A stretch of DNA of 64,000 bases. Origin: Heptranchias perlo. Taxonomy: Eukaryota. Where the stretch lies: the NCBI RefSeq assembly GCF_035084215.1, contig NC_090352.1, positions 30,318,001 to 30,382,000 of the forward strand, in the 5' to 3' direction. A program made the position numbers and the translations under genes. This document shows, piece after piece, positions 4,970 through 36,222 of this stretch (position 1 is the first letter of the stretch; each line of letters begins with the position of its first letter). Under the pieces are notes generated by a model, which saw only the letters and a program-made list of their open reading frames with translations, was not told the DNA's origin and searched no databases.

Positions 4970-5479
4970 TAACTATTGGCCTTTCTTATTCCACACTTTA
5001 GCATTAGATTTTTTGGTACTTTTATAATTTCCTCCCTTTTGTTTAAAGCTTTATCTGGGAAATTTCTGTTTCATTTTCCAGAATAACGAATGTCTTCTAG
5101 GGGTAGGGATTTTCAAAAGAATATTTCGATGCACAAATACCCACAGTGAGTTACAGATTCTCAAAGACTCTTGCAGCAGGTTTTGAAGCTGATCACTAGC
5201 TATTTTCAATGCTTTTCTCCTCCAACCGTGCTGGGTTGGATTTTTGTCCTTTCTCCAATTTCTTTAGGGCTCTAGATTATTTTTATATATATCCTCGTTG
5301 TTGAAGCAGTTGCTGTCCAGCTATAGCAGACAGGCCAGCCTGCACTTCATGCTTATTCCATCTGTCTCCTGCTCAATTTCTTTCTCTTTTTTTTTCTCCC
5401 AGCCTGGTTTATGAATTAAATTATTGTTTTCTCTGTGTTTCAGGACACAGGCTCTTTCTAGCCTTTGGCTGCTATGTTT

Positions 5480-9000: not shown

Positions 9001-12000
9001 GTATTATTGGTGCTAATCCTTACAGTGCATTGTAATTACACAAAGTCTTGGCTTGGAAGTGTGGATTAGATTGCACTTTTGTGGTTTATATGGCTGAGTG
9101 TCACATCATGCAATGCATACGGTGTGTTTTTTTTAAAGGGGTTCCTGATGATGGTGCTCCCACTAAGCACTGTGCCTGGCAATAGCAGTGTTTGTGAAAT
9201 CCTTTAATACTTTAGTGATGAAATTACTCTTTTGGTGAAAAATAGAAGAGAGCCTGTTTTTCTTCAGATTTAACAATCTAATTAAAATGCATTCCCAGTA
9301 ATTGCATGTTTTAAAGCCACAAGTCTCCCTGATTTTGATAGTGGGCCGTTAATTACAGAGAAAACCATTAAAAGGTGGAATTGATCCCAAGGTGTTCTTT
9401 CCTTTGTTCTACCTCAGTACTTGAGAGGTAAATTTTGCCAAAATCTTTTCTCCCAGTGGACATGAGCAATCCTCCGATCAGCCATCCGGGTCGGCGAAGG
9501 AAAGTGACCCGCTGTCTGAGGGCAGTGGCACCAAAAGGAGAAAGCGGGACAGGAGGACACCGCTGGAGCAGTTCGGTCGAAAGCACCTGCGTGTCACTGA
9601 CCTGAGTCGACAGGCCTGGTGTGAGCAGCAGGTGGTCTATGGGATGGAACTGCCGCACATTCAACAACTGCGAGAGGAGGTACCAGTTGTGAAAGCTGGT
9701 AGCAGTATACACCTGGCAAGGGGTAACTTATTCGACTTGAATGAAATGTTGCTTGTGGCCCAGTATGGTGGCGAAATAGCCACATACCACAGAATGCAAA
9801 GATGCAGATCTGTACCCATGATTCTGTAAGCAGTGCTTTTCAGATCTCAGCCTCTTTGGGAGACCAATAAGCAGGAGCGAAGTGCTTCCCACAGGGAGAA
9901 AAAAAACCTACTAAGAGCAAGGGTTATCTCCTAAAAGCCAGCTCAAGAGCACCCCATGAGTAGGTTAAGAACATAAGAAATAGGAGCAGGAGTAGGCCAA
10001 TCGGCCCTTCGAGCCTGCTCCGCCATTCAATAAGATCATGGCTGATCTGATCCTAACCTCAAATCTAAATTCATGTCCAATTTCCTGCCTGCTACCCGTA
10101 ACCCCTAATTCCCTTTACTTCTAGGAAACTGTCTATTTCTGTTTTAAATTTATTCAATGATGTAGCTTCCACAGCTTCCTGGGGCAGCAAATTCCACAGA
10201 CCTACCACCCTCTGAGTGAAGAAGTTTCTCCTCATCTCAGTTTTGAAAGAGCAGCCCCTTATTCTAAGATTATGCCCCCTAGTTCTAGTTTCACCCATCC
10301 TTGGGAACATCCTCACCGCATCCACCCGATCAAGCCCCTTCACAATCTTATATGTTTCAATAAGATCGCCCCTCATTCTTCTGAACTCCAATGAGTAGAG
10401 TCCCAGTCTACTCAACCTCTCCTCATATGTCCGCCCCCTCATCCCCGGATTAACTGTTGTCTGTGTTTTTCCTCCCGTCCCACCTGACAAGGGATTGATT
10501 GGCTGGTGTCACTGGGATAATCAAAAAGGGTGTAAAATAGCTTTAAAAATTGGGGCGGGGAAGAGAAGTAAAATGTTCCTGTTCTTCCTAGTAATTAAAA
10601 TGAAGGCTGTCACTGGTGCTATTCAAATTGATGGCAGTTGACTTTATTTAAATCCAGCTCCACAAATGCGCTCTGCACATTTGCAAATCTCACTTTTAAT
10701 TTCCATTTCCAAAGATAAAAACTTTTGTGATATTTGATAAACAAAAATTTGTTAATCCTATAAGCTTATACTATTCAGTGTTACCACCGAGTGCGGAGGC
10801 TATTGAAACCTTGACTGAATAGCCTCACTGAACCTACAGTGGGGAACAGAAAATTGTGGCCAGACTCCCAAATAATAGTTTGAGAGATCTGTTGTCTTCC
10901 CCTCCCACTGGTTTCCCTAGGCTGTGTACACAGCTCATACCTGTATGGTATCAGTTTTCCGTAGTTTTTGTTTTTACTCTCCTTTTCTCTTGTTCTTCTG
11001 AAGGTGCAAACGTGCTGGAGGGGCCCAGTAGCTCATCCAAGTGACCATGGTTCACTTGCGAGTCTAGATAGTTAGTTATAGTAGATTGGCTTGTTATTTG
11101 ATTGTGAGGTGTATCACAGCCAAGTCTGATCCTGTCCGCACACGTGTATTTTTCCAACACGGACACTAAATAGTGATTTAGTTGTGGGAACCAAGGCTCG
11201 TGTTCCTTTTCTCCTCTGCCTATTTTGGCTGAGATAATGTAACTCAGGATAGAGGAGGAATCAAAAATTGGATCTTCCGCATCTGAATGAGTCACCATTT
11301 ATCCACTCATTTTCCTGTGTTTTAACTGATGTTTTGGAAGACACAAAGCTCCTGTTGAGGGAATGACAGTTTGATAAAACCAGTACTGCCCACAGTAGTT
11401 TAAGATCTAGTACCATTTCATTGCTGAATGAGGTGGGCTAGGATTGAACTCCTTGCTCTTAAAGTAGATCCTAGTGACAGGTTTAAAGCCATGGATCTCC
11501 CATGTCTATCCAGTTTCATTCACATGCGTACAGCAATTCTGCTGTGTACTATATATCACAATGTTCCATTGAGGGGTGTGTGTTGATAATATGTATTTGT
11601 GCCTCTTCTTCTATTTTAGAGTTGGAGGTCCATGATATTGTCCCAATAAACGTAAAGAGCCGGGAAGATAGCTGGGCTGTTAAGCTGCTTAATCTTCTCT
11701 CAATGATCCAGTTCTTGCAGACCGGTATGTAAAAAGGCACTGGCAGATCGCTACATAAAAGGCACTTACAGGCAGGGAATTTGTATTTCATCAAAAAATA
11801 TTTGAATGCGTTCACCATTTTTCCACAAAGCATCTCAGACTCCTTCGGCTGGGAAGTTTAGTTTGTAGCCTTTTCCACAGCGGCACCCAGTTTGCCTGAC
11901 TTGCTGGATGGAGTCTGATTTTTTTTTTAACCAGTTGCCTTGCTGCCCTCTTCAGAAGGTAGATAGCCCCACCATGGTGAGCTGCTCCACTTATAAATTC

Positions 12001-14638
12001 AGCTGAGAACTGACAGAATCTAGCAGAAAGGCAGTCGGATTTGAGTGACGGGTCACAGGACTCAAAACCTATAACCTGCTTTAGTAATGAATGCCACAAA
12101 GGCTGTTGGCAGACCAGTCAACTATACAGTATATCTAATGAAGTAACATGGTTATACGTTGTACAGGAGAGCGTGTACGAGAGCTGCCTGTGTTTGGAGA
12201 GCTGGAGGGAATTTTCCTGGTTGGTGTTATTGACGAGCTATGTTATAATTCCAAGGGTGAACTGGAATTGCGTGAACTGAAAACACGTGGTCAGCAAACA
12301 TTTCCCGGTGCAGCCCAAAGAAAGAGTCATCACTTACAAGTAAGTGGGTGGGGCAAGAATAATTTGGAATGGATTAAAACCCTAAAAATCAGTTTTGTAT
12401 TGGACTCACTCTATTAAAATATTCCCATCAAGTTTAACATTCGGAACAAAAATTACTGGTCATTCCAAGACCTCGCTGGAAGGCATGCCCTGTTGTGTTG
12501 ATAACGTGTATAGCACCGGGTTAGATTTGTACCACTCTATATAGGATCGAATCTACACGGCACTAACTCTACAGTTCAACAATGTCCATGGGGACTTTGT
12601 ACTTCAGAGCGAATTCGAAGTTCATATTTTGGGAGTATTTTCATGGACTTTTCCGTCTGGCTTAGTTGGCAGCACTCTCCCCTCTGGGTCAGAAGGTTTT
12701 GGGTTAAAGCCTCACACCAGGACTTTAACACACAAACAAGGCTGATAGTCCAGTGCCGTAATGTGGGTGCACTGCATTGTTGGAGGTGCCTTCTTTCAGA
12801 TGAGATGTCAAAACGAGGCACCATCTGCTTGAACCAATGGTTCAGGTAGACATTAAAGATCTTTTGCCAAAAACATAATAATCTCTATCTTTACTGTTAC
12901 GCTTTTGGCTCCATTCTACCCTTCTTACTCCAGATTTCTTTGGTTTCTGTAGTTTTAGATCACTCTCATAGGTGATTCGTAACTCCCTGTGCCTTTGAGA
13001 GTGTCTTCGCTTGTCGTCTTATCTAAATAAGTGTTCAGTAATATTCCCAAAATAACAAACAGAACAAACTCCCTGTTAATTGTTTAGCTACTGGAAATTA
13101 TCTTGTGCCTCCTCAAGATGATTCTTCAAAAGCGACAGAGCATCACCTCAGACCTCGTTTTAGGTTTATTAAGAGAATTTATTAATCAAACTATTAACAA
13201 ACCATTCTATAACAATAGTATAATATATACAGCAGAAATTCTATTATTTAGATCCTTGAAAGGAAAACAGTAAAAGGAAACCATTTATACCTTAAGGTAT
13301 TCTTTTATAGATTGTGCACAATTCTTTTTTTGTAATCTTTTCTACCTGTAGGAGCTATAGTCTATATTATCTTTCTGTGCAGATTCCAATCGGCGTGATA
13401 AAAATCCACTTAGGATTTGCAGGCTTTGATATCCATCGATCGGTTGCTAGGATTTGTTGGATTTAAATGACGTGACACTCAGATTCAAAAATAATTGTCT
13501 GTTATACTCATAACTGAACCAATTAGACTGTGTGTGTATTTGAAATATGTGGCTTGGTTTCTCTCTCAGGCCTGTAACCTTGGAAACCAATTGAAAAACC
13601 TCATATCATTTGTATCAATATGGGCTGGCTTTTAAACACTTAAGTATTGTTACTGAATTAAAGAGACAGCTACCAGATTCAAATAAGACAGAACTGCTTA
13701 ATTTTTGTCTCACTGACCAGTATTCCTCCCTCAACCAATTTCTCATTACTGATTGTGGGACATGACTGCTGGAGAATTGGGCTGCCGTATTTGTCTACAT
13801 GACAGTTCTTACACTCTTTAAAAAGCGAAATCCTGATGTTTCAATGACATAACCCACTATTTAAATGCAAGTATTTCTTTCTTTGTGCTGTTGTGTTCTG
13901 CATAAATCACATGTCCAGCAAATTGAGTGCCAGTAAGCCTTGCGACATGATCTTGCTCCTGTTCAATTGGGAGGAAGTTGTGGGTTGCTGTTATGTCACT
14001 TTGTTTCATGCTTAATAACCCTTGCACAATCTATGCAGCAATACCAGGGAGCCTGTAATGAGCTCCAGTATGTGAAATGAATAGCAAGCAGATGTTGGAG
14101 TAATGTTGTCTCTGCGATACATAGATTGCATAGCTATCATCTAGTAAAACTAAATACCTTTTATCACCAGGTCATTGTATACAAACTTCTCTTTGAGGCT
14201 ATGATCAAAGGCCAGCTGAACAAGGACACCATCACTCACCATCTTCACTTACGGACAGAGCAGACCTTTGGGTCAGAGGTTATGGTGCAAGCTCAGAAGG
14301 TGGGATTTACCATAAACACATTTGGTGACCTTCTGGATTTAATGTTGTTAAACCTGACATACTCGGAGATCCCTACCATCGACATCATGAAGATAGAATA
14401 CTGTTACCAAGCAGATGCCTCTGTGATCGGAACAGAAGTGGTGTGCTTTGAAGAGGAGAAGGTTAAAAGGGAGCTGAAGTATTACTGCTCCTTCTGGAAG
14501 GGCCAAAGGGAGGCCCTGGGAGTGGATATTGAGGAGGCGTGGAAATGTCGATCATGTGACTTTGCAGACATTTGCGAGTGGAGAAAGAGAAAAGCTGAAG
14601 AAGCTACACAGAAGAATCGAGCAAATCAAAGCAAATGA
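6008..14638 (+). CDS. EXO5: Exonuclease V (EXO5/DEM1), ~398 aa; coding exons 6008-6095, 8876-8972, 9457-9722, 11620-11724, 12167-12339, 14171-14638
   Basis: The spliced ORF stays in frame across all GT-AG junctions (1197 nt). It contains EXO5 motifs [62 protein letters not shown], and the Fe-S cysteines [14 protein letters not shown]. The first two exons are less certain; FEISDAELL resembles the acidic human N-terminus. Confidence 0.93.
6126..6335 (+). mobile_element. Penelope-like element 3' terminus with hammerhead motif, in EXO5 intron 1
   Basis: Flanked by the direct repeat tcaatgataaggca (6112-6125 and 6333-6346). Carries the CTGAGGA-stem-GAAAGCTT core and the same tail as the 17.2 and 62.4 kb copies. 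Confidence 0.75.
6208..6248 (+). ncRNA. Minimal type I hammerhead ribozyme motif (PLE-associated)
   Basis: Stem I atttac/gtgaat, core CTGAGGA, stem II GGAGG-aag-CCTCC, GAAA, and a palindromic AGCT in place of stem III. Confidence 0.65.
9969..10452 (-). mobile_element. CR1/HER1-type LINE 3' fragment (young)
   Basis: ORF 10092-10490 encodes the CR1 RT C-terminus ([40 protein letters not shown]) followed by the typical 3' UTR and tail. Confidence 0.9.
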
Positions 14639-19792: not shown

Positions 19793-19804
19793 GAAACCGA
19801 AAGT
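19793..19804 (+). promoter_or_regulatory. ISRE / IRF-binding element upstream of the tapasin-family gene
   Basis: GAAACCGAAAGT fits GAAANNGAAA and lies 65 bp before the ATG. Weaker GAAA repeats occur at ~19737 and ~19755, and a GAS-like TTACCAGAA at 19765. Confidence 0.7.
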
Positions 19805-19868
19805 GTAACCGGCCAACCCCGATATTCCCGGTGATCCGGAATTACAGCGCGCAGAATAAGAATCCACC

Positions 19869-22800
19869 ATGTTTTTGAAGATATTCCTTTTGCACTTTTG
19901 GATTCTTGCTGCCGGTAAGACGATCAGAAGCTTCCAAGCCAAAGGAGCAAAACTGATATTTATTTAATGATTGTATTTGTGTTTGAAATCGGCCGCTCAA
20001 GGGATGCTTCCAATATGAAACTAACAACGCCCATGGGATCCTTGTAATGCAAGCACAGGATAAAATGAAACGTTGATTTGGGTGGCATAACTGCATCGTT
20101 AGGCTCCAAGTAATAGCATGTTATTAGTCTCCAAAAGGGCCGCACTGAATATAAAAACACTATCAACACGCAAGGGCAAGTCAGAGCACCATCAACATAC
20201 GGTGTCAATGAGTTGAGAATAAGATGCTCCTTGGGACTCATCCCCCTTCCAAACAAACCTGCAAACCCGGGGCGGGGTTAAAGGATTAGAAACCCACATT
20301 CAATCCTCCCGGTAAAATGCACCTGAAAACGGCCAATGCGATAAAAATTCCTCTGCTCATTACGTCTTACGACCTTGTAAACTTGTTTTGTGAAGATTTC
20401 CTCTGGAAATTTCCTCAGAGGGGTTGTACTGACCCCTCTGAGGCACAAGGTTGTACTCGAGCACATAATTAAGGCTGACACCAGAGTGCAGTGCTGAAGG
20501 AGTGCTGCATTGTCACAGGTACTGTGCTTTCCATGAGAAATAAAACTGAAAACCCCATTCAGCTGCCAGAGGTTCAGCTAGATGTTGAAAGATCCAGTAG
20601 TACTATTTAAAGAAGAACAGAGTTCTCCCTGGTTTCATGGCCAGCATTTATCCCTTAATCAACATCACCAAAAACAGATGAACTGGTTGCCGTTTGTGAG
20701 ATCTTGCTGTCCGCAAAATGGCTGCAACACTCGCCTACGTAAGAACAATGACCACACTTCAAAATAATTAACTACATATGAGGCAAAGTGGGGGATGTTT
20801 CTGAGACATGTGATCAGGTGCTATATAAAGGCTTCTTTTGTCTATTGAAATCATAAACACTTTCCAAGAGAATGCATTTACAATGTTACTGTGTTTACAA
20901 TGTGTATCCTCATAAACATGTTCACTTAGCATGTATTTACGATTTCACTAGAAATATTAATCTGAGGAGGACTTCACAATTGTATGTACCATGTTCCTAC
21001 ACACAGTGACCCATACGTCTTTTAATGCCTGGAGTCTGAGTTCCAATCTAGTAAAGACTGAGGGAATAAAGTTTACTTCTCTCTATAAAGGTCTTATAGC
21101 AAATATGTTTGGCCCCAAGCTCTCAGCACCAGACTCACCATGATTTGGGACTAAAGACTGGCTGCTGTGGGAAATGGAAATTTCACACTTGTGCAGTAGG
21201 AGGTGCTTTCCTGAGGTTATGAATAAATCGTGTTATTGGGCCGACGTCATGGGAGCTTTAATCGGCTTCACACTCAATGCTATATCTAACCTGGGGGTAT
21301 TTGATGAAGCCATGGGGTACAAAAAAGGAAAATGCACCATTTCATCAGTACATGATGAATGCAAAGATTACCAACATCAATTCCTTCTTATTTATTTTTC
21401 CAAATTCTCTTGCACCTCCTGAAGAGGTTACTTTTTTTCTTGGGATTGATCTATGGACATTGGCAGCCTTCCGGTACCTGCCAAATGCCTATTCTTTATA
21501 TGTGAGCCCAGACAGTGAGTATCAAAGGCTATTTGATCATTGCAGCTAATCCCGTTGCTGTGCACCAGGGAGCAATAGATAGCAATCATTAGCAGAAAGA
21601 CTTGTTGATTTTCCTCCCCACTACCTTAGGGACTCTGAGGGCAGTTGTATCATCCCAATTACTGCCCAGGCACCTTATGGTCTTTGCCTTAGTACTATAA
21701 AAAGGATGCATTTAACCAGTCAGCCACTGGAGGGAGTTCTCCTTCGTATTTCTATTGGTTTTGACATCAGTGTTTTAGTAAATGCAAATCAGGAGTTTGA
21801 ACCTTATATTTGTGATGGGAAATGTTTAACTGAATAGGAGTGAAACACATCAAAGGGACTCTGTGCACTGGTTATAGAGATCTAGGAGTTTTGGTTGGAG
21901 ATTCTCTGTGGGATTGTGGTCCAAATGGACTGGATTTGCAGTGTAGGACAGTCTGGTCCAAAGTTTTTGAAGCCTAGCCTAACTACAACTGGATCTGATC
22001 TGTCGAGACCAGTTCATACTATGTTAGGGTTGAGGCTAGCTGGACCGCACCCAATATTATAATCTAACAGTATTATACATAGACACTTGGATTTAAGACT
22101 GCCCTAATTGCAGGAATAACAAGCAATCTTATCAGCAGACAGCGAGTTAGCTTCAGCATATAACCAAATAATTGAATACTTTTACAGCAGAGCAAAACCC
22201 CAGCTAATATTCTCAAGTTCCACAATCTTACTCTGAAATGGAAAATTGCTTGTTAAAAACTGGACAAATACTTTCAAATTGCAATTTATGTTTTTGAATT
22301 TTAACTTGTAGGCCACTGCAAGATTAAATTACTTGGAGGAGATGGGAGTTAAGAGTTTGATTTTTCAGTGAAGCTGCTGTGTAATGTGCGGAGTGACTGT
22401 TTCCATTCTCTGATAAAATCTTTCTTTGACACTCCTTCATTCCTTTTTTTTTTAGGAATTGTGCAGGCACAGAATGGACATACAATCCCAAACAGAAAGG
22501 TGGACTGCGTGTTTCTAGAAGAGAAACAAAATGAAGAGGCTCATGTGTTTGGGCCCATAATCACCAAGAGGAAGGCATTACTGTTGTTTGGTGATATCAA
22601 TACAAATGAGGAGGCCATTACTTTTAAAGTTAAAGGTAATGTGAAAAGATCAAGCGCATCAGTAAATTAATTTTCTGTGGCAAGTACCTTCTATAGTCAG
22701 GGTGACCGTTCAAAATGGTTTACCCTAAAATTGCTTGTAATAGAAACACCAACCGTGATTATTCCCATGGCACTGCTCATGGTAAATCAGACGATTAATT

Positions 22801-25800
22801 GATTTATAAGGACAGGAGCAATGTATGATGTAAAACACATTATATTCTTCTTCTGCTAAATGTAGGCTACAAAATCTATTTGAATCCACAGAGTGAAGCT
22901 GAGCCAGGAAAGTCACAGGTTCAATCCATGATCAGCATGTGTCAGCACCTTCAAGATAGTGGGGGTGGGGGGTAGAATTACATGCACTGCCTTTTGATTG
23001 TGATTTAATACAGTATTTACACAAATAAATGCTGTCATCGGAGACTCCGGCACGAAGAAATACATCAACCATGGGCTGTATGGCTGGTATTGTCAGAGTG
23101 CACGGAACAAAAAAAAGACAAACAATCTTGCACACCTCAATCCAGTTTGGTGGAAGTGGAGTTTAATGCAGCGAAGCTATGCATTTAATGAGGCTAAGCC
23201 AATAAAGTGCAATGCCAGAGGTATACCTGAGCAGTGTCGCACTGTGTAAATCGCCTATGACAGTTTAAAATGAAGCTGGGAAAGTGACTGATGTTTTGAA
23301 TTGATAATGGCAACTTGGATCTAAATAGCAGAATTTTTTTGTCTACTGAATAGCTAAGACATTGTGATTGTCTGGTAGAATGTAAAAGGCGTGAAGCTAT
23401 GCAGATAAAAATGTATCTTGACGTCTGTAGGGTACTGTATTTAATTGAATGCCGCAGGAAGCTGTTTATATTTTTGAATTGTGATATCATCAGGCTTTGT
23501 CTGTTTGCTCAGGATCCTATCTGCAAGCAACAAAAAGCAATGTCCCCCTCCACTCAAATGGTGATGTCATTGTTTGCTCTTGCCAGAGAAGGAGGCATTG
23601 GAGATGTCTGAGGATGGATGCTCGAATCCCCCAACAGATTAAAAACTGCACAGTTTTACAGTCCACTAGTTCTTAGTTCTGAGATTTGGTCAGATGGTGG
23701 CATCTCTGTAACGTGAGACTAGCACTGTATACACCCTGATTCAAGGGCAACTGACAGAGATTGAAAACTGCAGAATTCATGAATCAGGGGTTATTGTTTC
23801 CCCAAAGACTTTTCTCAAAGAGGATAATTAACCCATTATGGAGTTTGCTCATTACATTTATATAGAATTACATAGAATGTACAGCACAGAAACCGGCCAT
23901 TCGGCCCAACTGGTCCCTGTTGGTGTTTATGCTCCACACGAGCCTCCTCCCTCCATTTATGTTTAATATTTACACTCGGTAGTATTTACCAAATTCCATT
24001 TGTGCTTCACTTTCCATTTAATTAGAAATAAACATTCTTAATTACTTTAGCTCGTTAAAACTTTGCTCCGTATTTTAATATTCCACCAATTCAAAAAGAA
24101 TGATGTCATGCTATCAGACTAAGTAAATCCAGCAAGTAAGGGTAGTTGTTCATTCTCAAGTCATGTGAAGGGCAGATTATTAATAAGAGTACAGCTTCTG
24201 CAACATAGAGGACAAGATACAGGGATGAATCCTTTGAGAGAGAAAACAGTTCTGTACAACATCTGAAATTGTAACAGTGAGAGATTTATATGCACACCTC
24301 CATGCTCGAAACTTGTGCGGACAGGACTAGTTTACTCAGTAAGGGAAACCTCGTTCAATCAAAGATTGAAGTTAATTGCCAGTGATTAGTTTGAAGATGC
24401 CTTTTGGGAGAGACAGAATCCACTGGTTGTTTTGCTCCCTAAGTCAGTCTTTCAAACTGGAATTGTCAACCATTGATGCAATTTATTGGGAGAGGTGGAT
24501 TTTCAGTTTGAAAGGATACACCTCAGGTTGTAGGAGTGATTTCCAATATTTGAATGCCCTGGTTGTTTTTCTTTAAATCACAAGTTATAACAGAAGGATT
24601 TGCAGAATAGTGCTACATCAGAGCGATGTGCTGAGTACTCCATTCCAAATACTTAGCAGAGATTGGAACATAAACAAAGCCAGCTTGCAATCTGAAGAGA
24701 CCCAAAATACTTTAGAGAGATGCATTACATGGAGGCTCCTTATGCTGTGGCATTCAGCAAGCTTGCTGCAATTGGTTATAAAGCAGATTCCTGGATAGAG
24801 AATTCCGTGAAGGAATTCTTTAAATGAGGATATTTTTAAAAACTGAAAGTCTAAATATAAATTCCTGTAGAGTCAGCTGTGCTAAAATCTTTATAAATCA
24901 CGCATTTGAATTCATTACTTCTGCTGGATATTGGAAGCGAGTGTTTTTAGATTTATTGTTACTTCACAGCAGTAGCTATGCTGTGCTGTACAAGTTCGAA
25001 CATTTCCAAGGCTGAGTGACACGGTATCTATCACAGGTTTTCCATTAGACCCCCCTTTTTAACCCCTCCATGTTCACTCCTCTTCTCTCCTGAAGGTGCT
25101 GATTTATGCATGTTCACCCAAGTGAGTGTCGGCACGCTGTTCGACTGTGGGTGCTATCACAGCCAAGCCTGGCTCTGTCCCCGCATGAAGTCCACACACA
25201 CGCACCTTTCAGCTTGGGTCACTGGATAGAGATCAGGAATGGGAAACCTGGCTGATTTTTTTAGTTCTTCCTTCCCCGGCCTAAAGATGCTAAGAAAGAA
25301 AGAACTTGCATTTGTACAGTGCTTTTCACAATGTCAGGACATCCCAAAGTGCTTTACAACCAAAGAAGTACTTTTGAAGTGTACTCACGGTTTAATATAA
25401 GGCCAATTGTAGTGTCCTTCCTGCCCTCCAGTTGGAATCAACCATGTCCTCACAGATTGGGTATTGAACCCTCCTGGACTGTGTGGCTCAGGATCACATG
25501 GAATGGTGCATTTATCCACCAAACCATCGTGGAAGCTCTAGAAATAGTGTTTCCTTCCATGTTTAGTACTGGAACCCTTCTTGATGTAAGTAACCAGCAC
25601 CTCCTTCCATTAACTTGCTGTCTAATCAGTGTTTGAATCTTTCCTTTTATTTACAGAACCTTCATTAGACATATTCCAGCATGTGGATGAGAAACCCGAC
25701 AAACTGGAATGTGAAATTAGCAGGCATTCTACCCTTGGCATCCAGGTGCCATGGCCACATCAGGGTAAAGTGCCCAGTGAGCAGGTAGCGGACATATGGT

Positions 25801-28800
25801 TCACAGTGACTGTAAAGCACGGCAAGGGCAGATTCACCTTAACCAGCTTCATGAGGAAGATCGGAGAACCCGAAAGCCAGAAGGCTGAGAACAGTGAAAC
25901 AAAAACTGATGCTGAAGATTCATCCATCGGCAGTACAGACACACTGTTGGTTCAAGGTAATGTTCTACCGCTGGTAGGAAGCTAACTAGGGGGCATAATC
26001 TTAGAATAAGGGGCTGCTCTTTCAAAACTGAGATGAGGAGAAACTTCTTCACTCAGAGGGTAGTAGGTCTGTGGAATTTGCTGCCCCAGGAAGCTGTGGA
26101 AGCTACATCATTAAATAAATTTAAAACAGAAATAGACAGTTTCCTAGAAGTAAAGGGAATTAGGGATTACGGGGAGCGGGCAGGAAATTGGACATGAATT
26201 TAGATTTGAGGTTAGGATCAGATCAGCCATGATCTTATTGAATGGCGGAGCAGGCTCGAGGGGCCGATTGGCCTACTCCTGCTCCTATTTCTTATGTTCT
26301 TATGTTCTAACCAGCCCAGTACAAGTTGGGACGGAGTGCTGCAAAAATATATGTGGTTGTGGACAATATTTGCCTTTCATTTTGTTTTCTGTCTTTATAT
26401 GGGGTGACAGAGATGGATAATCATTCGGTCCTGAGGATAGATTTGAAACTCTTGCGATTTGTTGTATTTGGAGTTGTGATGGGCTTTGAATTTAATACTT
26501 AACCTTTATTCAGTGGGGTTGCAAAATGGTGGATTTTCAAGAGAGCAGCTAGCAAACACTACACCACCGAGTGAGAGGATGCCACTTTGCCATTCGCCAC
26601 AAAGATTGTAGTTTCATTCCAGGTCTTGGTTGGACTGCAGTGATGAGGCACTTCTCCCACAGTGGAGAAGAGAGAATCGGGCGGCAATCCTCCAGGCAGC
26701 CGGCTGGAGAGAGCAGTATTTGGAGAGGGCGAGGAATAGGTTGGCTGCCCACCGCTATCAGCATGGAAATGATTTGTCATGACCTCAGGACTTTCCAAAG
26801 CACTTCACAGCCAATTAAGTACTTTTAAATAGAAGGGGAGAATTAGGGGCAAAGTAAAAATGCATTAAAAAAAATCTTCAGATGCAATTTAAGATTAAGG
26901 CTAGTCATGTCTAGAGAGAGACATGAGATGTAGCCACAGGGTCAGCAGGTTATGGTTTCAAACCCCACACCAGGGTCTGAGCGCATAAACCAGGCTGACA
27001 CTCCAGTACAGTGCTGAGGGACTACTGCATTATTAGAGGTGAAGTCCTTTGAATGAAACATAAAACCAGGGTTCTCTTTGTTGATGTGGAAAGTTTTGAA
27101 GAAGAGCAGGGAGTTCTCCCAGTGTCTGAGTCAACATTCCTTCCTCAACCAATATCACCAAACAAAACGGATTAATTGATTCTTCACCTCACTGCTGTCT
27201 GTGGGATGTTGCTGGCACAGTATACCCGCCTCGTTCACTGACATAACAAAGGTCACTGGACTGCAAAAGTAATTCACTGTGTGAGGCACTTTGAGAAGTT
27301 TCAGTGACGTGATGATGTGCTACATAAGTGCAAGTTTCTGTTCTAATGGGGAGTGTTAAAGTCCCCTCTATTCCAATAATAATGCAAATGAACAAAAAAC
27401 TGTGTGGCATAAACAGCAAATGAATGGATGTGTGAAATGATGAGCTTATGAGGAATATATCATTTAAGTGGTTTTACATGAGTTACTAATACTGATTACC
27501 TGGTGCGAAATGCAAGATAATGGCTGTTTCTTTTTACTTTTTAGTGACCTACATTATCCGCACCAGCACCCCATTTATCAGAACCAAACTGAGGCAAGAC
27601 CTGGTTTTGGACTGTGGCTACAAAATTGATCACATTACGGACTTTAACATCGAGTGGAGGTACCAGCACAGGGGGACCAAGAAGAAATTGTTCTCCTACA
27701 ATGGGCGGCATCAGCAGGTTGAACACATCGAGAAAGGAATGGAAGTGTTCATGGACCAGATCAAGAACGGAAACGCTTCCCTCCGCATAAAAAATGTTGG
27801 CATTAAAGATGAGGGATCGTACACCTGCTCCGTATATGTCCCTCCACTCTTTGGAACACACACCATCAACTTGGAGATTATGGGTAAAATGCTGTTTAAT
27901 TAAATGGTAAAGAAAATGAGCGGGTTAGGGGAAATGGCGATTAGAATTTATTTGGGTGACGGACTAGCGTGGACTAATTAGCAGAAAATTGAAGGGACAG
28001 TTTTGATCTTGCTGTCTCCTGACGTAAACGAGGGTCTCTGCTCCAGAGATAATGCCTAGATTAATTATTTCAATCTACATACAGCCGAATACATACATTT
28101 GAACATCTGGAAAAATTGTACAGTGCAGGTAGTTAAGATTAGTACCAACACCTGGAAAAAATCTTCTTTAATCTTCAACCTGATGGTCAGCAATCAGCGT
28201 GGTTGGAATCAAGCTCCGCTGAGGACAAGGTTACACTCATTTCTTGTGGCAGGGTGTTTTACAACTGTGCCTGAGATAGTCCTTACGAGAGGTATAATGT
28301 CAGATCTGGGGGGTAGGCGTTCCATTGTGTTCCTCAGGGGTCACTACTTGGATCCCTGTTTTTTCTACTCTACATAAATGACTCGGAAACCAAACATCAG
28401 ATTTGCTGACCACACTAAAATAAGGAGAACAGTAGAGCCAGAGGATGCAGCAAAAGGTTTGCAGAAGAATTGGCAATGCAGCTGGCATAGTAAATTAAGA
28501 AAGAACGATCTTGCAATTATATAGCACCTTTCATGTCCTCAGGACATCCCAAAGTGCTTCACAGCTAATAAAATATTTTTGAAGTGTAGTCACTGTTTTA
28601 ATGTAGACAAATGCTGCAGTCAATTTGTGCACAGCAAGGTCCCAAAAACAAGAATGAAATAAATGACCAAATAATCTGTATTTAATGGTTGAGGGATGAA
28701 TATTAGCTAGCACACCGGGAGAATTCTTCTGCTATTTGTCAAATAGTGTCTTTTCTTGCGTCCACCTGAGAAGGCAGACGGGGCCTCAGCTCAACATATT

Positions 28801-31800
28801 ATCCGAAAGACGGCACCTCCGACAGTGCAGCACTCCCTCAGTACTGCACTAAAATATTATCCTAGATTATGTGCTCAAGTCACTGAAGGAGGGCTTGAAC
28901 CCATGACCTTCTGATTCGGAGGCAGCAGTGCTACCACTGAGCCAAGGTTGACATTCAATTAAATAAAATTTAGCGATGATAAATTGGTTGGACTTCGGTC
29001 AATAAAACGTGTGTCACACGGTAAGTTCTCTGATTCTGTACTCCCAGCTTGAAACCACACTTGAAGAGAGCACGGTTCCCCACTGGGAACACGATCAGTG
29101 AATTTACCCTCATAGGTATGCAATGAATGGAATTGAACTGGCAAAGTTCAACTTGGAAAGGGACATGAGAGTAATGGTAGACTCATCACATTCAATGTCT
29201 GGACATGTGATTGTGTGGGAAAATATTACTATCAAAAAGAGCTTTGTGTAGGAAAAATTAAATAAAGGGATTTTTTTTTAGATTTGCGTTTCCCATATTG
29301 GTTACTTTTTGCTACGGAGACATGTTCATATTCTGGTCCTATGTGGAATACTAGATTATTCCAATTTGATTACAATTAAAAGGGGTGCAAGCTACGAATC
29401 TTAGAAAACCCCAAGCGTCAGAAGGCCTATAAATCATTAATGTATGTCCAGTTGTCGTGACTTATTCTGACAACAGTTATTTTTTGTTTTCTTTGTAGAG
29501 TTGCCCATTGTCTTCATGAACACTGATTCACTTTCCCTTAAGGAAGGGGATGAACAGAAGCTGCAATGTGATGTGGGGCGGTATTACCCACTTGACGTCA
29601 CAGTGAAGTGGCTGCGGCAGCAGAGGGAGGAACATTTGCTGCCTGTCTACATGACCAATGTCGTCTTTTCGCCCCACAAGCAGAACATAGACGGCACCTA
29701 TAATGTAACCAGTTACTTCAGGTTCAAGGCTTCCCTCAATGACAATGGCATTATATACACTTGTCGAGTTGAGCATACCAGCTTGGAGAAACCGATCAAA
29801 CGTTCCGTCCGAGTAACTGTAGAGGGTAAGCAATGAGGAGAATCCTATGATACTGTTGACTTAGAATTGTTCCAAAGTGTTTCACAGAGTCAATATGGTT
29901 GAATATTGGATACCTAAGGATGTTCATGTCTTTTATTTTCCCTCTCAGATTAATATTGAAGTAGCTCCAATACAGTGAAAACATCTAAATGTACTTAATG
30001 TTGGAACAGTTTTGGAACCATCCTGGTTCCTGCGATTACTCAAAGGTTGACTTTTTGTATAAGTTTTCTGCCTGTCAAAAGGCTCATTTCCTCATAATCT
30101 CCTTCAGTTGGGAAGATAGCACTGAACAAATTATGAATTCTGCGCAAATTTGACATGTTTCACTCCAACCTCAGTCAAGTAGAGATGCATCTGTCAGTTA
30201 TTTTCCTTCTTAATTTCCAACTCAGAAAACTTACAAAGGATACTAAGTTCTTCTAATACTTAGTATCTTTGCAAATACCATAGCGTGTAAAAATGATAGT
30301 AACAAAAGTTCTTGTAATACTTTTGTTACTATCAATTTTACACTCTCTGGTATCCTCATTACCATCAGCAACCTCTCCTTTAGCCTGCTAAGATGTGGTA
30401 TTCTGGGCTGAACATTCTCACATGGGTGTTGTCAATGTCACTGCAAGATTTTCTGACAAGAGAGCATAGGTCAGTCTTTCCCCCTTCTCCCCACAATGGA
30501 GCACTCTGCCATTGCCAAGTGAACTGAGCTGTCGGGTCAAGAGCTCCTGAGAACCACCCTTGATGAGAGCCAGTGTCACAGAATGCCAGGGCTTGAGGTT
30601 ATAACCTGTCAGTGAGAATGCACAGCACAACCAGTGCGACCTGTCGCAGTTTTGATTTTGTTCAAACTGGTCTTCTTGCCACATCGCCCTAAATATTATA
30701 AAGGGAGATTTCCACACTCTCTGTCCTGCCTAAGCGTATGTTTAAAACTGCTGGTAAAGAGCAACCGTGACACAGATTCCAAGCCCTGGGTCTCTTCCAC
30801 TACCGGTCATTCACTCTGTGTGAGAATCACAGGTCTGCTCCAAGTCTTGGGTCTCTTCTACTACCAGTCTCCCAATCCTCTCCATGAGAGTGCCCAGTCT
30901 CCTCTGAGAGGCAGGTGTTTACCGTTTCCTGTCTTCCTCTCACATGAATATTAAATAATACAAACATTCAACCTTTATGTGGCAGATTGGATGAATGCAA
31001 TTCAGTAAGGAAGTGGTAAAGAAGAAAGAAAGAACTTGGATTTATATTGTGGGTTTCACATCCTCAGGACGTCCCAAAGCGCTTAACTGTAATTGCTGTT
31101 GTAATGTAGGAAATGCAACAACCAATTTGTGCACAGCAAGGTCCCACTAACAGCAATGAGATAAATGACCAATTGTTTTAGTGCTGTTGATTGAGAGATA
31201 AATGTTGACCAGGACATTGGGGAGAACTCCCCAGCTCTTCTTTGAATAGTGTCATGGGATCTTTTATATCCACCCGAGATTTCAGATAGGGTGTTGGTTT
31301 AACATCTCATCTGAAAGACAGCACCTCCGACAGTTCAGCACTCCCTCAGTACTGCACTGAGGGTCAGCCTAGATTGTATCCTCAATTGTCTGGAGTGGAG
31401 CTTGAACCCGTGACCTTCTGATTCATAGGCAACAGTACCATCACTGAGCCAAGGCTGATACCAGTAGTAATTAAAGGAGCTGACAGGGATATAGGGAGTG
31501 GGTTACAGTGAGGAAAGCTGGCAAGCAACCCAGAAAGAATACAGGAGCAAAGCAGGAAATACCATTAACAAATAGGTTTCAGTGATTGGTTTACACAGGA
31601 AAAGGACCAAGGAATTGAGAAGAAGTCTGAGAAATTTGTTGGCAGTGGTTATTCTAGTGAACAAATCATTGACAATTTGTGATCTTCCGCAGGGTTGGAA
31701 GCAAGAAAGTGTAGTGCCTACGTTTGTAAAGGAAAGATCTCTGACTGAGGCAGTGGCAGGTCCTGGGTAAAATAATAGAAACTCTTGTAAGGATTGGGCT

Positions 31801-34800
31801 GGAGGACTGCCTATATAGTAATATCTGAAGAGTCAGCTAGCATGGATTTAGAAGGGAAAGATCCTGCTTGACACACCTCCTTGAGTTATTTGAGGACATT
31901 ATAAACAAAGCAGTGGAATTCCTTGTGATATAGTTTAACTGGACTTTCAAAAAGTTGTTGGCAAGATTCAACAAGATTTATAACAAAACTAAAACCATGG
32001 GAATCCAGGGTAAAACATGGGGACTGGACACAAAGTTGAATAAATAGTAGGAAATAAAGAATTTGCAGGACGTGTAATGTTAGAGTGGGGGTGGGGATGA
32101 TGAGTGGAGTACCCCAGGGGTCTGAGCTTGGAACCTTGTTTTGCATCAACATAAATGACCTTGGAAGCAGAAACCTAATGTAAGCTTCTTAAATGTTCAG
32201 ACAACTCTAAAATAGCGCAAAAGGGGCAGAGGATACAGTTAACTATTTGAAGAAGTATTTAGATCTGCTATGCAACTGGGTAAACAAATGAAACTTAATA
32301 CCGACAAATGTAGCATATAACATATTGGGTGAAAAATGAGTATGAGCTATCTGTTTTTGGTGGTGTTGGTTTGAAGGATAAATGTTGACCAAGGCACCAG
32401 GAGAACTCCTTTCGCTCCTAATTCTCCTTTTAAGGTAGTTCCAGTTTCCAATGTTTGTAGTGACATGTGACAGAGGTCTCAAAGCACTGACGCTGATGAT
32501 CTTTTCTTTTAATTCCACAGCACAACCTCAGATACTTTTATTTATCCTACTTTCAATTCTGACCCTATTTTTCTTTGCCATTGTGATCATCCTGCTGATT
32601 CACTTGAAAAAAGGTGAGTATTTGCTATTGTGAGTTCTGTGCTGTTAATCAGCACTGGCTGACACAGTGCCTTAATGGTTCCTTTTACAGCCTTCACAAT
32701 AATCAGCTTTACTATTATTTAATCTCTGTAGAAACATTTTTCAATATCACAAGAATCACAGGAATGCACAGAAATAGCAAATGTTTAATTTGGAATATCA
32801 GACAAGAGAGGAACTTTCTTTTATTTTAGGGATACAGACATCACTGCAGGCCCCAACTAGATAGAGCAAATAGCCATGAGCGAAATCAAAGCAGAATTAT
32901 AAATGTGTCATAGCTCGTAACTTTGAACAAGGTATCGAGAGACAGTTATCAGTTGCACAAGATTTGCAGATCTAGTTGGGCTGCCTTATCAAGATTAGTT
33001 TACAAAGACATTTGCTCTATCTTAACAAACAGCTTTATTGGGATCAGATAGAATTTTAGCTATATAACTGGTAATGTTTCAAATCATCTGTATGAATGAA
33101 ACAACGAAAAGAGTCAAAGATACGGACAGATTTACAAAAATGAGTTTTGTGTGACACAAAAACACAGACCCATCTGAACATTGAATGATTCTTTTTCAGC
33201 CAGTATGTTTGAAATCACAACTTCACCTTTTATTGGAATGTTCTGTTAGTGGTTGGCTTTCATTGAGCCCAATTGTGGTCGCTGATTGAATTGATTGCGT
33301 GAGAGGAGCTTGTGGTGGGGTCCAACAGAATGTGTGAGAGGAGCTAGTGGTGATGTGATTATGTCACAGCAGCTTTAACTGGTCTTTTCCCATAGAATGA
33401 CAGCAAGAACAACCAAAAGGGGAATAGCAGCTTCCTGGATGGTATGACCAGGGAGTGCCTTTGACTTTGCTACCAGGTGCACTTAGATACAAGGAGTCCA
33501 GCAAGTTAATAAGCCAGTATCATTGACAACAACCTTTAACATAGTGAAATATCCAAAGGCACTTCACGGGTAGGAATGGAAGGGACACTGAGCAGGAGAT
33601 TGGAAAACAGGGGCTGTGACTGAAGATGTGGCTGAAGAGATATGTTTTCAGGAGACTTTTTAAGATGTGGAGAGATATAGCAGGATGGAGGGGTTCAGGA
33701 GGAGAATTCTAGAGGGCAGGGGTGTGACGGTTGAAGGCTCTGCCACTGATGCTGGAGTGGAGGGAGTGGGGAACGCACAGTAGGCCAGTGTTGGAAAAGT
33801 GCAGGCTGTGAGATGGGACCACGGGCTGGAGGAGGTTGCAGAGGCAAAGCGGGACAGCATCACGGTAGAATTTGTAAACAAAGATGAGGATTTTGAAATC
33901 AGGGGTAACAGTAAGCCGGTGGATGTTGGCAAGGACAGGGGCTTAGTACCAGAAAGGATCTGTGGACTGAAATTTTGGACAAGTTGGACTTGAGTAGAAT
34001 GGCGCTTGGAAGGCCAGAAATGAGAAGTGAAGCCTGGAGGTGACGAAGATATGGTGAGAGTTTTGGTACCAGCGGAGGTGAGGTAGGGACGGAGATAGGT
34101 ATTGTTACAGAGATGGAAATGGGCAGCCTTGTTGATGGATATGATTTGGGGTTTGAAGCTCAGCTCAAGATGCCTACATCAGACGTCTAATAATGTCCAA
34201 TTTATTTTTAAATCAAAAGCCTCCGTGGGAGTGCAGCAGTTAAACAAAAGTTTGTGCTCAAAAGACTCGTGAAGCCAATTCTTTACCTTATCCACTATAC
34301 AAAAGAATGGAAAGGTGCTTGAGTGATATCAGAACTGATATTCTATCTGTTCACTGCATGATATGATTCCAAATGACTCTTTATCCTTTCCTTTGCAGTC
34401 ATCGAGAAAAACAAGGTAAGAGCAATATAATTTGAGTTTTATTAGTGCCACAAAGTCTCACATAGAAAACCTGTGAGAAAATGATAAAGGTCATTTTAGT
34501 CAGATAAATGTATGGGGATCACTTAATATTTTGGATAGTGTAGCGGTGTTTTTTTCCCCCTGACAAACCCTTGCTGTGGCATGGTTCCATGCTCGTTGGT
34601 GAGCCTCCAATATCCTAATTGGCTAATCTGAGCTGGGGCACCAGTAGGGTTCTACAGTTTGGCCCAGCATTCCTGGACTAGAAAGGCTAAAAGTTTCAAA
34701 GTAGTAAGCAGCCCAAGGGATGTCACAGAGTGGGAAACAGATGCCAAGCAGTGGTAGAAGAGTTAGGAGGGACCATTGAAAGCATGATAGGTTTTGAGTA

Positions 34801-35716
34801 GGCTTTTAATGGCTAGGAAAAAGTAGTAAGGTAGTGAGATTTGGGGAGGGAACTCCAGGGAGTAGGACCAAGATGGCAGATGGGCCTGCCACGGCTGGTG
34901 GAGTGGAGGACGGGTAAGATGCACAGGAAAAGAAAGAAAGACTTGCATTTATATAGTGTCTTTTACGACTTCAGATCGTCCCAAAGTGCTTTACAACCAT
35001 TGAAGTACTTTTAAAGGGTAGTCACTGTTGTAATTTAGGAAACGTGGCAGTCAATTTGCGCACAGCAAGGTTCCATCTAGGTGACAGCAATGAGATAATG
35101 ACCAGATAATCTGTTTTAGTGATGTTTGGCTGAGGGATAAATAATGACCAGGATAGGAGGCCAGAGTCAGAGGCCTGAGGGAATGGGCTGGGTTGTAGGA
35201 ATGAAGTTAATTGAAGAGATGGGGGTGTGGTGAGTCCATGGAGGCATTATTAGATGAGGAGGATTTGAAATCAATGCTTTGGGAGACAGGAAGCCTATGG
35301 AGTTTAATGAAGATGGAGGTGATGAGTGAGAGGGACTAACTGCGGGCCAGAATGCAGGTGGTGGAGCTTTGAATGAGTTGTAGGTGAAACTCAGGAGGCC
35401 GGTGAGGAGGACTCTTGAGATTTTGGGTCTGGAGTGGTTAAGGCCTTCCGCAGCAGAGGGGTGAGGTGGGGGTTGAGACGGGTGATGTGGGGGTTTAGTG
35501 ATAGATAGGATGTGGGGTTTGAAATTCAGCTCAGGTTGAATCAACCATTTAGACCAACAAGTAGTGAAAATGAATATGATTTAATAAAGTTTTTTTATTC
35601 CTTTATCTTTTTAATTATACTCCTCAGTCATTAAAACCAACATGTGCTGTTATGTTATGTTATAGTATTTTTCATTGTTCTTCCTTTTATCCTTTCAACA
35701 GAAGAAACCATACTGA
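19869..35716 (+). CDS. TAPBPL: Tapasin-family (tapasin-related/tapasin-like) type I membrane protein, 438 aa; coding exons 19869-19914, 22456-22635, 25657-25956, 27545-27883, 29499-29825, 32521-32613, 34399-34415, 35702-35716
   Basis: Kozak ccaccATG and signal peptide MFLKIFLLHFWILAAGIVQA. The N-terminal domain has VDCVF..LECEISR..PWP..WF. It is followed by an IgV domain (LDCGY..IEWRYQHRG..GNASLRI..DEGSYTCSV), an IgC1 domain (LQCDVGRYYPLDVTVKW..HKQNIDGTYN..YTCRVEHTSL), a TM exon and the tail KKVIEKNKKKPY*. All junctions are GT-AG and in phase (1317 nt). The exact paralog is uncertain. Confidence 0.88.
25984..26307 (+). mobile_element. CR1/HER1-type LINE 3' end, near-identical to the copy at ~10 kb
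   Basis: Reverse complement of ~9969-10290 with only a few substitutions; ends in a ttcttatg-type tail. Confidence 0.9.
28497..28950 (-). mobile_element. tRNA-derived SINE (SacSINE1/DeuSINE-like), near full length
   Basis: The minus strand begins with Pol III A box TGGCTCAGTGG and B box GGTTCAAGCCC, and ends in an L2-like tail. Many homologous copies occur in the window. Confidence 0.75.
31022..31457 (-). mobile_element. tRNA-derived SINE, same family
   Basis: Colinear homology to 28497-28950, including the A/B boxes. Confidence 0.75.
31650..32340 (+). mobile_element. Old, degenerate CR1 RT fragment
   Basis: Recognisable remnants of HGFRRERSCLT, DFQK and SGVPQGS.LG RT motifs, with frameshifts. 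Confidence 0.65.
33528..34170 (-). mobile_element. Degenerate L2 LINE fragment
   Basis: Homologous to the L2 3' ends at 18984-19340 and 61663-62060. Confidence 0.6.
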
Positions 35717-35761
35717 ACATTGGAAAAGAGGATTCAGTGTAAGTATCGGGAAGTGCTAGTA

Positions 35762-36222
35762 AGGAAAGAAAGAACTTGCATTTATGTAGAACCTTATCAT
35801 GTCCTTGGAGCATCCCAAAGTGCTTCACAGCCAATGAATTACTTTGAAGTGCAGTGACTATAGGTAAATGCAGTAGGAAAATTGTGCACAGCAACATCCC
35901 ACAAACAGCAAAGGAGTGAATGACCAAATTAATCTATTTTTAATGGTGTTGGTTGAGGGAGGAATATGGACCAGGACACCGGAACAACTCTGCTCGTCTT
36001 CAAATAGTACCATTGGATGTTTTACATCCACTCAAACTACTTGAAATGGAGGACAGGGCCACGATTTAATGCCTCACCTGAAAGATGACACCTCTGATAA
36101 TACAGCACTTCTTCAGTACTTTGTTGATGTGTCAGTCTAGATTATTTGCTCAAATCCTAGAGCGGGGCTTAACCTACGACTTTCTGACGCAGAGTCAAGA
36201 TTGCTACCGACTGAGCCAAGCT
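35762..36222 (-). mobile_element. tRNA-derived SINE, same family
   Basis: Colinear homology to 28497-28950. Confidence 0.7.

What the first reader, a model, noticed from the sequence alone, without database searches (positions are those of the whole stretch)
19869..35716. Tapasin-family gene with a hybrid feature set at a locus matching neither tapasin nor TAPBPR
Seen: the protein ends in KKPY*, a KKxx ER-retrieval motif, as tapasin does and human TAPBPR does not. However, the N-terminal domain has only the two structural Cys, with none in the PW..WF segment where tapasin has ERp57-binding Cys95. The TM helix (ILLFILLSILTLFFFAIVIILLI) lacks the Lys that tapasin uses for TAP binding. Its neighbours are LIAT1 and RAP1GAP2 (human 17p13.3), whereas tapasin is MHC-linked and TAPBPR is at 12p13. 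Inference: this is probably the third, tapasin-like lineage reported in non-mammalian vertebrates. It would be an ER-retained MHC class I chaperone candidate independent of TAP and ERp57, and its function is not established.
Basis: partly seen in the sequence, partly recalled or inferred. Interest (0 to 1): 0.7.

Follow-up and report, generated by a model that had tools for sequence, protein, structure and literature searches.

The report
Shark TAPBPL, third tapasin-family gene
This is an intact, spliced shark copy of TAPBPL, a known but never functionally tested third relative of tapasin (the helper that loads peptides onto MHC class I), and it likely works as an interferon-inducible class I helper held in the endoplasmic reticulum without docking on the TAP peptide pump.

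Summary
The gene is real. Eight coding exons give a 438-aa protein identical to an NCBI model from Heptranchias perlo. Spliced contigs (4 of 4 runs, one sample) join every exon, including a 17-nt micro-exon and the KKPY exon. In a 56-row tree it lies in a third clade (SH-aLRT 100) with the Xenopus and chicken proteins that Grimholt 2018 named TAPBPL. AU tests reject placing it with TAPBP or TAPBPR. The same genome holds separate TAPBP and TAPBPR genes.

The 'hybrid' reading needs correcting. Missing Cys95 marks nothing, since 32 of 33 non-mammalian tapasins, including this shark's, lack it too, so ERp57 independence is unsupported. No TM lysine plus a dilysine tail was already reported for TAPBPL. 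EXO5, not LIAT1, is the direct upstream neighbour.

Added here: an ISRE 76 nt before the ATG, with ISRE cores at all three paralogues. The acidic and Arg residues of the MHC-binding TN6 patch are kept in 14 of 14 cartilaginous-fish copies but 0 of 11 tetrapod copies. The Q261 position is Thr. Function is untested. This scan noted the same gene in other shark and ray genomes.

The parts
19793..19804 (+). ISRE/IRF-E-type element, 76 nt upstream of the ATG
   Evidence: Only strict match in the window (0.31 expected per window, 27 of 100 shuffles had one or more). ISRE cores also lie 114 and 85/96 nt upstream of the TAPBPR and TAPBP ATGs. The consensus is recalled. Two of the three contigs that reach exon 1 begin upstream of it (19682, 19691).
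19869..19914 (+). Exon 1, coding part: signal peptide (5' UTR reaches at least 19682)
22456..22635 (+). Exon 2: end of signal peptide, N-terminal domain part 1 (Cys33, editing-loop region 37-52)
25657..25956 (+). Exon 3: N-terminal domain part 2 (Cys94, Glu95; no Cys between C94 and W123; Val where many bony-fish and bird TAPBPLs have their extra Cys)
27545..27883 (+). Exon 4: IgV domain (E212, R214, Q216 of the TN6 patch; N252 sequon; T280 at the Q261 position)
29499..29825 (+). Exon 5: IgC1 domain (K349, D353, N357 sequon)
32521..32613 (+). Exon 6: transmembrane helix (32532-32600), no charged residue
34399..34415 (+). Exon 7: 17-nt micro-exon of the cytoplasmic tail; sets the frame of KKPY
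   Evidence: Its letters stand between the joint sides in 4 of 4 runs
35702..35738 (+). Exon 8: KKPY, stop (35714-35716) and 22 nt of 3' UTR
37182..37730 (+). Exon 9: non-coding 3' UTR exon (end not determined; contigs reach 37669-37730)
9425..14635 (+). Neighbour: EXO5 gene exons (outer limits of the two Pfam-matching open frames; gene not fully modelled)
1135..4972 (-). Neighbour: LIAT1-like exons (name recalled; no family match)
   Evidence: open frames; no informative Pfam match
56070..60158 (-). Neighbour: likely 3' exons of a RapGAP gene (RAP1GAP2 by recall), tail to tail with this gene
   Evidence: open frames; Rap_GAP domain exons just beyond the window

Best explanation
The gene is the shark orthologue of TAPBPL, the third tapasin-family lineage, and its protein likely acts as an interferon-inducible, ER-retrieved chaperone or peptide editor for MHC class I that likely does not dock on TAP. 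Shown: gene structure, splicing, clade membership, three separate paralogues in one genome. Predicted: a tapasin/TAPBPR three-domain fold. Inferred: (1) IRF binding to the ISRE induces it with the class I pathway; (2) the KKKPY tail binds COPI and returns it to the ER; (3) the concave N-domain/IgV face (E95, E212, R214, Q216) and the IgC face (K349, D353) hold a peptide-receptive class I molecule as tapasin and TAPBPR do, with T280 in place of Q261 weakening or retuning the alpha2-1 helix contact; (4) with no basic TM residue and no free Cys it makes no direct TAP contact and no disulfide to ERp57 or UGGT1, though the N252 glycan site could still recruit calreticulin.
For: Tree: three clades, each SH-aLRT 100; still three clades (95, 99, 98) with five V+C1 outgroups; AU tests. 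The clade holds Xenopus P0194 and chicken P0218, whose printed segments match Grimholt's TAPBPL sequences. Own genome: TAPBP on C42, 220 kb from DAXX, and TAPBPR on C358. Model: pLDDT 89.1; best structural matches are tapasin and TAPBPR, Z 22-26.6 for the top nine rows over 299-344 residues (3f8u_B: Z 25.4, rmsd 3.2, 317 aligned), against Z 16.6 for B7-H6. Residues whose mutation hurts MHC-I binding in tapasin (E72, E185/R187/Q189, R333, D337) map to E95, E212/R214/Q216, K349, D353. Dilysine tail in 27 of 37 clade rows and in 12 of 14 cartilaginous-fish rows. ISRE. Salmon TAPBPL genes rise 1.5-3.0 log2 on IFN-gamma and also in a second study.
Against: I found no binding, localisation or editing experiment on any TAPBPL (call the function unknown). 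Q261 is kept in 33 of 33 TAPBP and 23 of 24 TAPBPR rows but only 2 of 35 covered TAPBPL rows, and Q261A alone lowers class I surface expression. Tetrapod TAPBPLs lack the acidic+Arg pair (0 of 11), so the family does not need this patch everywhere. By sequence alone the best PDB matches are B7-H6 (E 5e-28) ahead of TAPBPR (7e-26). The strength of a dilysine signal ending in Pro-Tyr was not checked. Residue mapping to human numbering was read from Grimholt's alignment; no human tapasin was in my alignments. Trees are 'quick' (no bootstrap). Transcript support is one sample.
Confidence: 0.6

Rival explanations
1. It is an ER chaperone, but for a different client: a nonclassical class I lineage or another MHC-fold molecule rather than classical class Ia.
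For: The Q261 position is changed across the clade while both other paralogues keep Gln. The patch differs further in tetrapods. This genome holds many class I genes on unplaced scaffolds (43 exon matches).
Against: No client is identified; most contact residues are the same as in tapasin and TAPBPR.
Confidence: 0.2
2. It is a member of an alternative peptide-loading complex, reaching TAP or ERp57 indirectly through calreticulin and the glycan, so it is not independent of them.
For: N252 sequon kept. Shark tapasin also lacks Cys95, so covalent ERp57 linkage is not how sharks build the complex. Grimholt speculates on alternative complexes.
Against: No basic TM residue and no 'IEDA'-type juxtamembrane segment as in TAPBP rows.
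Confidence: 0.1
3. It acts mainly at the cell surface as a B7-like ligand, or has a role unrelated to class I loading.
For: B7-H6 is the top sequence match in PDB. A paper title and abstract start report human TAPBPR as a T-cell co-inhibitory B7-like molecule (PMC8103088, search listing only).
Against: Conserved dilysine tail, full three-domain tapasin fold, ISRE shared with both paralogues.
Confidence: 0.08
4. It is a displaced, divergent tapasin or TAPBPR rather than a third lineage.
For: Automatic names in the databases mix 'tapasin-like' and 'tapasin-related'. Identity to the shark's TAPBP is 29.7% and to its TAPBPR 25.4%.
Against: AU tests reject both placements; true orthologues of both exist in the same genome.
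Confidence: 0.02

Closest known systems
TAPBPL (tapasin-like, third lineage) of Grimholt 2018, PMC5824609; not the human gene symbol TAPBPL, which is TAPBPR
   Same: Same clade. No TM lysine, ER motif, N233-equivalent sequon, 'W...WF' segment without Cys95, and a KPY terminus (gar KKKPY, salmon RKPY, chicken KPKPY).
   Different: Grimholt lists no cartilaginous fish in the passages and supplement parts read. The 'unique' TAPBPL Cys three residues after the Trp is absent in 14 of 14 cartilaginous-fish rows (present in 10 of 36 clade rows). The TN6 acidic+Arg pair is kept, unlike in tetrapod copies.
Tapasin (TAPBP), including this shark's own copy (P0226, C42)
   Same: Fold, exon layout, dilysine tail (31 of 33 rows), N252 sequon, most MHC-I contact residues, upstream ISRE core; both shark proteins lack Cys95.
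   Different: No basic TM residue (29 of 33 TAPBP rows have one), Thr for Q261, different chromosome, 29.7% identity.
TAPBPR (human symbol TAPBPL), including this shark's own copy (P0058, C358)
   Same: Fold, uncharged TM, E/R/Q hairpin residues, upstream ISRE.
   Different: Lacks the extra Cys before the second structural Cys (23 of 23 TAPBPR rows, 0 of 36 clade rows); has a dilysine tail (3 of 24 TAPBPR rows); Thr for the conserved Gln; 25.4% identity.
B7-H6 (NCR3LG1) and B7-H3
   Same: V+C1 Ig pair, 27% identity over about 205 residues.
   Different: No tapasin N-terminal domain; they match only residues 176-394 of the model.

Membership tests
TAPBPL (Grimholt 2018) | Groups with published TAPBPL sequences, apart from TAPBP and TAPBPR | tested here: met
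   anchors P0194 and P0218 match the paper's frog and chicken sequences by eye
TAPBPL (Grimholt 2018) | Six conserved Cys and tapasin three-domain architecture | tested here: met
TAPBPL (Grimholt 2018) | No TM lysine; ER motif at the C-terminus (in some members) | tested here: met
TAPBPL (Grimholt 2018) | Extra Cys 11 residues after the Cys95 position (reported as unique to TAPBPL, but also missing from the paper's own frog, turtle and opossum rows, so not a strict definer) | tested here: not met
   Val126 here; 0 of 14 cartilaginous-fish rows and 10 of 36 clade rows have it
TAPBPL (Grimholt 2018) | Locus shared with other TAPBPL genes | tested here: inconclusive
   Gar TAPBPL is on LG22, which equals chicken 19; that RFLN/LIAT1/RAP1GAP2 lie on chicken 19 and human 17p13.3 is recalled. 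Gene-level neighbours in other species were not read.
Tapasin (TAPBP) | Phylogenetic membership | tested here: not met
   p-AU 1.9e-5
Tapasin (TAPBP) | Basic TM residue for TAP binding | tested here: not met
Tapasin (TAPBP) | Linkage to the MHC region (DAXX as marker; recalled) | tested here: not met
   DAXX lies on C42 beside P0226, not on C31; 0 of 43 class I exon matches are on C31
TAPBPR | Phylogenetic membership | tested here: not met
   p-AU 2.6e-8
TAPBPR | Extra free Cys (C94/C97, UGGT1 link) | tested here: not met
MHC-I chaperones/editors (function) | Conserved class I contact residues (E72; E185/R187/Q189/Q261; R333; D337) | tested here: inconclusive
   Five identical, R333 as Lys, Q261 as Thr
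MHC-I chaperones/editors (function) | Measured binding and peptide exchange on class I | not testable with these tools
   needs bench assays

The most novel reading that the evidence does not exclude
The first jawed vertebrates ran three interferon-induced class I editors, and cartilaginous fish keep the third in its working form: an ER-resident, TAP-free chaperone with a retuned grip (Thr for Q261) that serves its own class I clients, perhaps the expanded nonclassical lineages. The tetrapod copies lost the E/R core of that grip and changed or lost the job before placental mammals dropped the gene. The gene sits outside the recognised MHC paralogons, so it would have been moved or copied there before sharks and bony fish split, not made in place by genome doubling.
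Probability: 0.3. Interest if true: 0.7.

Novelty: new member of a known kind. Interest (0 to 1): 0.4.

Why it matters
TAPBPL has been known since 2018, and reviews and later salmon papers still call its function unknown. Shark, ray and chimaera copies date the three-way split of the family to before the cartilaginous/bony fish divide. They also keep more of the class I-binding surface than tetrapod copies, so a shark protein is the best candidate for a first binding and peptide-exchange test. The gene itself is an expected orthologue, already modelled by NCBI under an uninformative name.

Tried and rejected
Complex prediction of the ectodomain with three exon-encoded domains of a shark class I heavy chain, no b2m: score 0.00 in two runs, controls not folded, no verdict; it bears neither way. 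The careful (bootstrap) tree did not finish in two tries, so quick trees are reported. The branching order among the three clades is unresolved with outgroups; the midpoint root is for drawing only. MHC linkage of C42 could not be shown directly: all 43 class I matches lie on small scaffolds, the class II beta search rang nowhere, and only one proteasome exon match lies on C42, 19 Mb away. The RPH3AL-type FYVE_2 search gave no match near the locus. Exon 3 alone matched nothing in PDB by sequence. The paper on dilysine recognition rules was not held and two searches gave listings I did not read, so the effect of Pro-Tyr after the lysines is unchecked. No run is on record as RNA; I treat the contigs as transcripts because they skip introns at GT-AG ends and the genome search showed no intronless copy. 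Alternative tail exons: an acceptor scan of 32614-37000 gave three candidates; the contigs use two of them and not the one at 35628. Supplement part 10 of Grimholt held nothing on TAPBPL loci. Rejected: 'missing Cys95 = hybrid', and 'ERp57-independent' as a distinguishing claim.
Full report
Gene and protein. Reading splice sites from the sequence gave eight coding exons on the + strand, all GT-AG: 19869-19914, 22456-22635, 25657-25956, 27545-27883, 29499-29825, 32521-32613, 34399-34415, 35702-35716, encoding 438 aa with six Cys and sequons at N252 and N357. A search with exon 3 returned an NCBI protein of Heptranchias perlo named 'tapasin-related protein-like', identical to the model. Pfam finds V-set and C1-set domains. 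Contigs from 4 of 4 runs laid (one sample, one study; RNA is the tool's guess) join exons 1-5 (exon 1 in three of the four), the TM exon, the 17-nt micro-exon and the KKPY exon, then splice from 35738 to a non-coding exon at 37182. The stop lies 22 nt before the last junction, inside the distance that escapes nonsense-mediated decay (recalled rule). No other tail was seen, but contigs drop rare variants, and these runs may not be independent of the NCBI model.

Fold. The AlphaFold2 model built on a 51-row alignment has mean pLDDT 89.1. Foldseek's best matches are tapasin and TAPBPR chains. VIA-align gives Z 26.6 to 18.9 for the twelve tapasin/TAPBPR entries (3f8u_B: Z 25.4, rmsd 3.2, 317 aligned) and Z 16.6 for B7-H6, which covers only the two Ig domains. 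By sequence alone B7-H6 ranks slightly above TAPBPR.

Which lineage. I picked 56 mostly full-length family proteins from the hits, leaving out multi-Ig proteins, most fragments and near-duplicates. The quick IQ-TREE tree has three groups, each SH-aLRT 100. The window protein sits with shark, ray, chimaera, sturgeon, coelacanth, lungfish, amphibian, turtle, bird and marsupial proteins, among them Xenopus P0194 and chicken P0218, whose printed segments match the TAPBPL sequences in Grimholt's supplement. Forcing it into TAPBP or TAPBPR is rejected (p-AU 1.9e-5; 2.6e-8). With five V+C1 outgroups on the two Ig domains the three clades persist (95, 99, 98) and their order is open. The genome holds the other two genes: TAPBP on C42 (P0226), 220 kb from DAXX, and TAPBPR on C358 (P0058). 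Pairwise identities among the three are 25-30%.

The 'hybrid' features, on 94 hand-picked rows (37 third clade, 33 TAPBP, 24 TAPBPR; no mammalian tapasin among them). Cys in the segment that holds human Cys95: 0 of 36 covered third-clade rows, 1 of 33 TAPBP rows (Anolis), 6 of 23 TAPBPR rows. So the shark's own tapasin lacks it too, as Grimholt stated for non-human tapasins. Basic TM residue: 29 of 33 TAPBP rows, Arg in this shark; no charged residue in the TM of the 13 cartilaginous-fish third-clade rows that have one (counted by eye). Dilysine tail: 27 of 37, 31 of 33 and 3 of 24; of the ten third-clade misses two end in KPY with one Lys and eight look truncated or are other isoforms. The TAPBPR Cys before the second structural Cys: 23 of 23 TAPBPR, 0 of 36 third clade. 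The Cys that Grimholt called unique to TAPBPL: 10 of 36, none in cartilaginous fish. The protein therefore has no free Cys.

Class I-binding surface. Tapasin mutants that lose or reduce binding or function include E72K, E185K/R187E/Q189S/Q261S (TN6), R333E and D337A (PMC10040737; TN6 also holds for TAPBPR, PMC7117912). Read through Grimholt's alignment these map to E95, E212, R214, Q216, T280, K349 and D353. The Q261 column is Gln in 33 of 33 TAPBP and 23 of 24 TAPBPR rows but 2 of 35 covered third-clade rows. The acidic+Arg pair is kept in 14 of 14 cartilaginous-fish, 6 of 10 bony-fish (with coelacanth and lungfish) and 0 of 11 tetrapod rows. These rows are related, so the counts reflect a few events, not independent tests.

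Regulation. A strict IRF-type element (consensus recalled) lies at 19793-19804, the only one in the window; window-wide this is not beyond chance (0.31 expected). Its position is what counts: of two strict matches in 361,571 bases (window plus 37 loci), one is 76 nt before this ATG and the other 114 nt before the TAPBPR ATG, and the TAPBP gene has two relaxed cores and a GAS-like site at -85 to -102. The relaxed core occurs at 0.25 per kb in the window, about 0.03 expected per 120 nt. Two contigs start upstream of the element, so it may lie in the 5' UTR of some transcripts. Salmon TAPBPL genes are induced by IFN-gamma.

Locus. Order: refilin gene (PF15068, +, 10 kb before the window), LIAT1-like (-, name recalled), EXO5 (+), this gene (+), RapGAP (-; RAP1GAP2 by recall). 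None of 43 class I exon matches is on this chromosome. Gar TAPBPL is on LG22, the equivalent of chicken 19 and a CLG-G descendant (PMC10115646). That the neighbours map to chicken 19 and human 17p13.3, and that this is not an MHC paralogon, is recalled. If right, the locus is old and argues for early relocation or segmental copying, where Grimholt proposed the second genome duplication.

Mechanism. Shown: structure of the gene, splicing, clade, paralogues. Predicted: fold. Inferred: interferon induction, COPI retrieval, class I binding through a partly conserved surface, no direct TAP docking, no covalent ERp57 or UGGT1 link. I put this at 0.6, a different client at 0.2, an indirect loading-complex member at 0.1, a surface ligand at 0.08 and misplacement at 0.02. 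Membership in TAPBPL itself is about 0.97.

What is known. Grimholt 2018 defined TAPBPL in teleosts, gar, frog, turtle, birds and opossum and described the same feature set (PMC5824609: abstract, passages, supplement parts 9, 10, 26, 27 of 30). Kaufman's review lists three family members in non-mammalian jawed vertebrates (PMC9586880, passages); PMC9372762 says no information exists on non-mammalian MHC interaction with TAPBPL (passages). In the shark MHC paper PMC10751288 'tapbpl' is the CD4/LAG3-linked gene, that is TAPBPR (passages; its supplements were not read and may bear on this). PMC7573153, PMC12234341, PMC10040737, PMC7117912 and PMC10115646 were seen as passages; PMC8103088 as a listing only. 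Four searches of the open library showed no paper describing a cartilaginous-fish TAPBPL or any TAPBPL assay; subscription journals are mostly not held. Earlier notes of this scan report the same gene in other sharks, a sawfish and a skate; I looked them up after my own tests.

Verdict. A correct call on the lineage, an overstated call on the hybrid features. New member of a known, functionally untested family; interest 0.4.

Noticed in passing
window 9425-14635 (+): EXO5 here is spread over several exons; human EXO5 is recalled as having one coding exon on chromosome 1p, so this may be the ancestral intron-bearing locus.
   Followed up: partly
window 19686-19808 (+): A 40-codon upstream ORF in frame with the main ATG stops 60 nt before it; it lies within the longest contig's 5' end (19682) and overlaps the ISRE.
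   Followed up: no
window 35739-37181 (+): An intron in the 3' UTR, 22 nt after the stop codon, used in 4 of 4 runs.
   Followed up: yes
G000:C42:1635721-1661500 (P0226; L013-L016): The shark's tapasin has Arg at the TM position, a KxKxx tail, no Cys95, and a long first loop with Phe, unlike the short human loop; most non-mammalian tapasins look the same.
   Followed up: partly
P0202 (coelacanth), P0072 and P0234 (ducks): Three TAPBPR rows end in KxKxx, so ER-type tails are not confined to TAPBP and TAPBPL.
   Followed up: no
L024-L028 (C1438, C1057, C1161, C1654, C1050): Several near-identical class I genes with classical-looking anchor residues (recalled) lie on unplaced scaffolds; the alpha3 exons of three are identical while alpha1 and alpha2 differ, and one has Leu for the conserved alpha2 Trp.
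   Followed up: no
window 29499-29825; P0226; P0058: All three shark paralogues carry an N-glycan sequon at the N357 position in the IgC domain, next to residues implicated in class I binding; human tapasin has Ser there.
   Followed up: no
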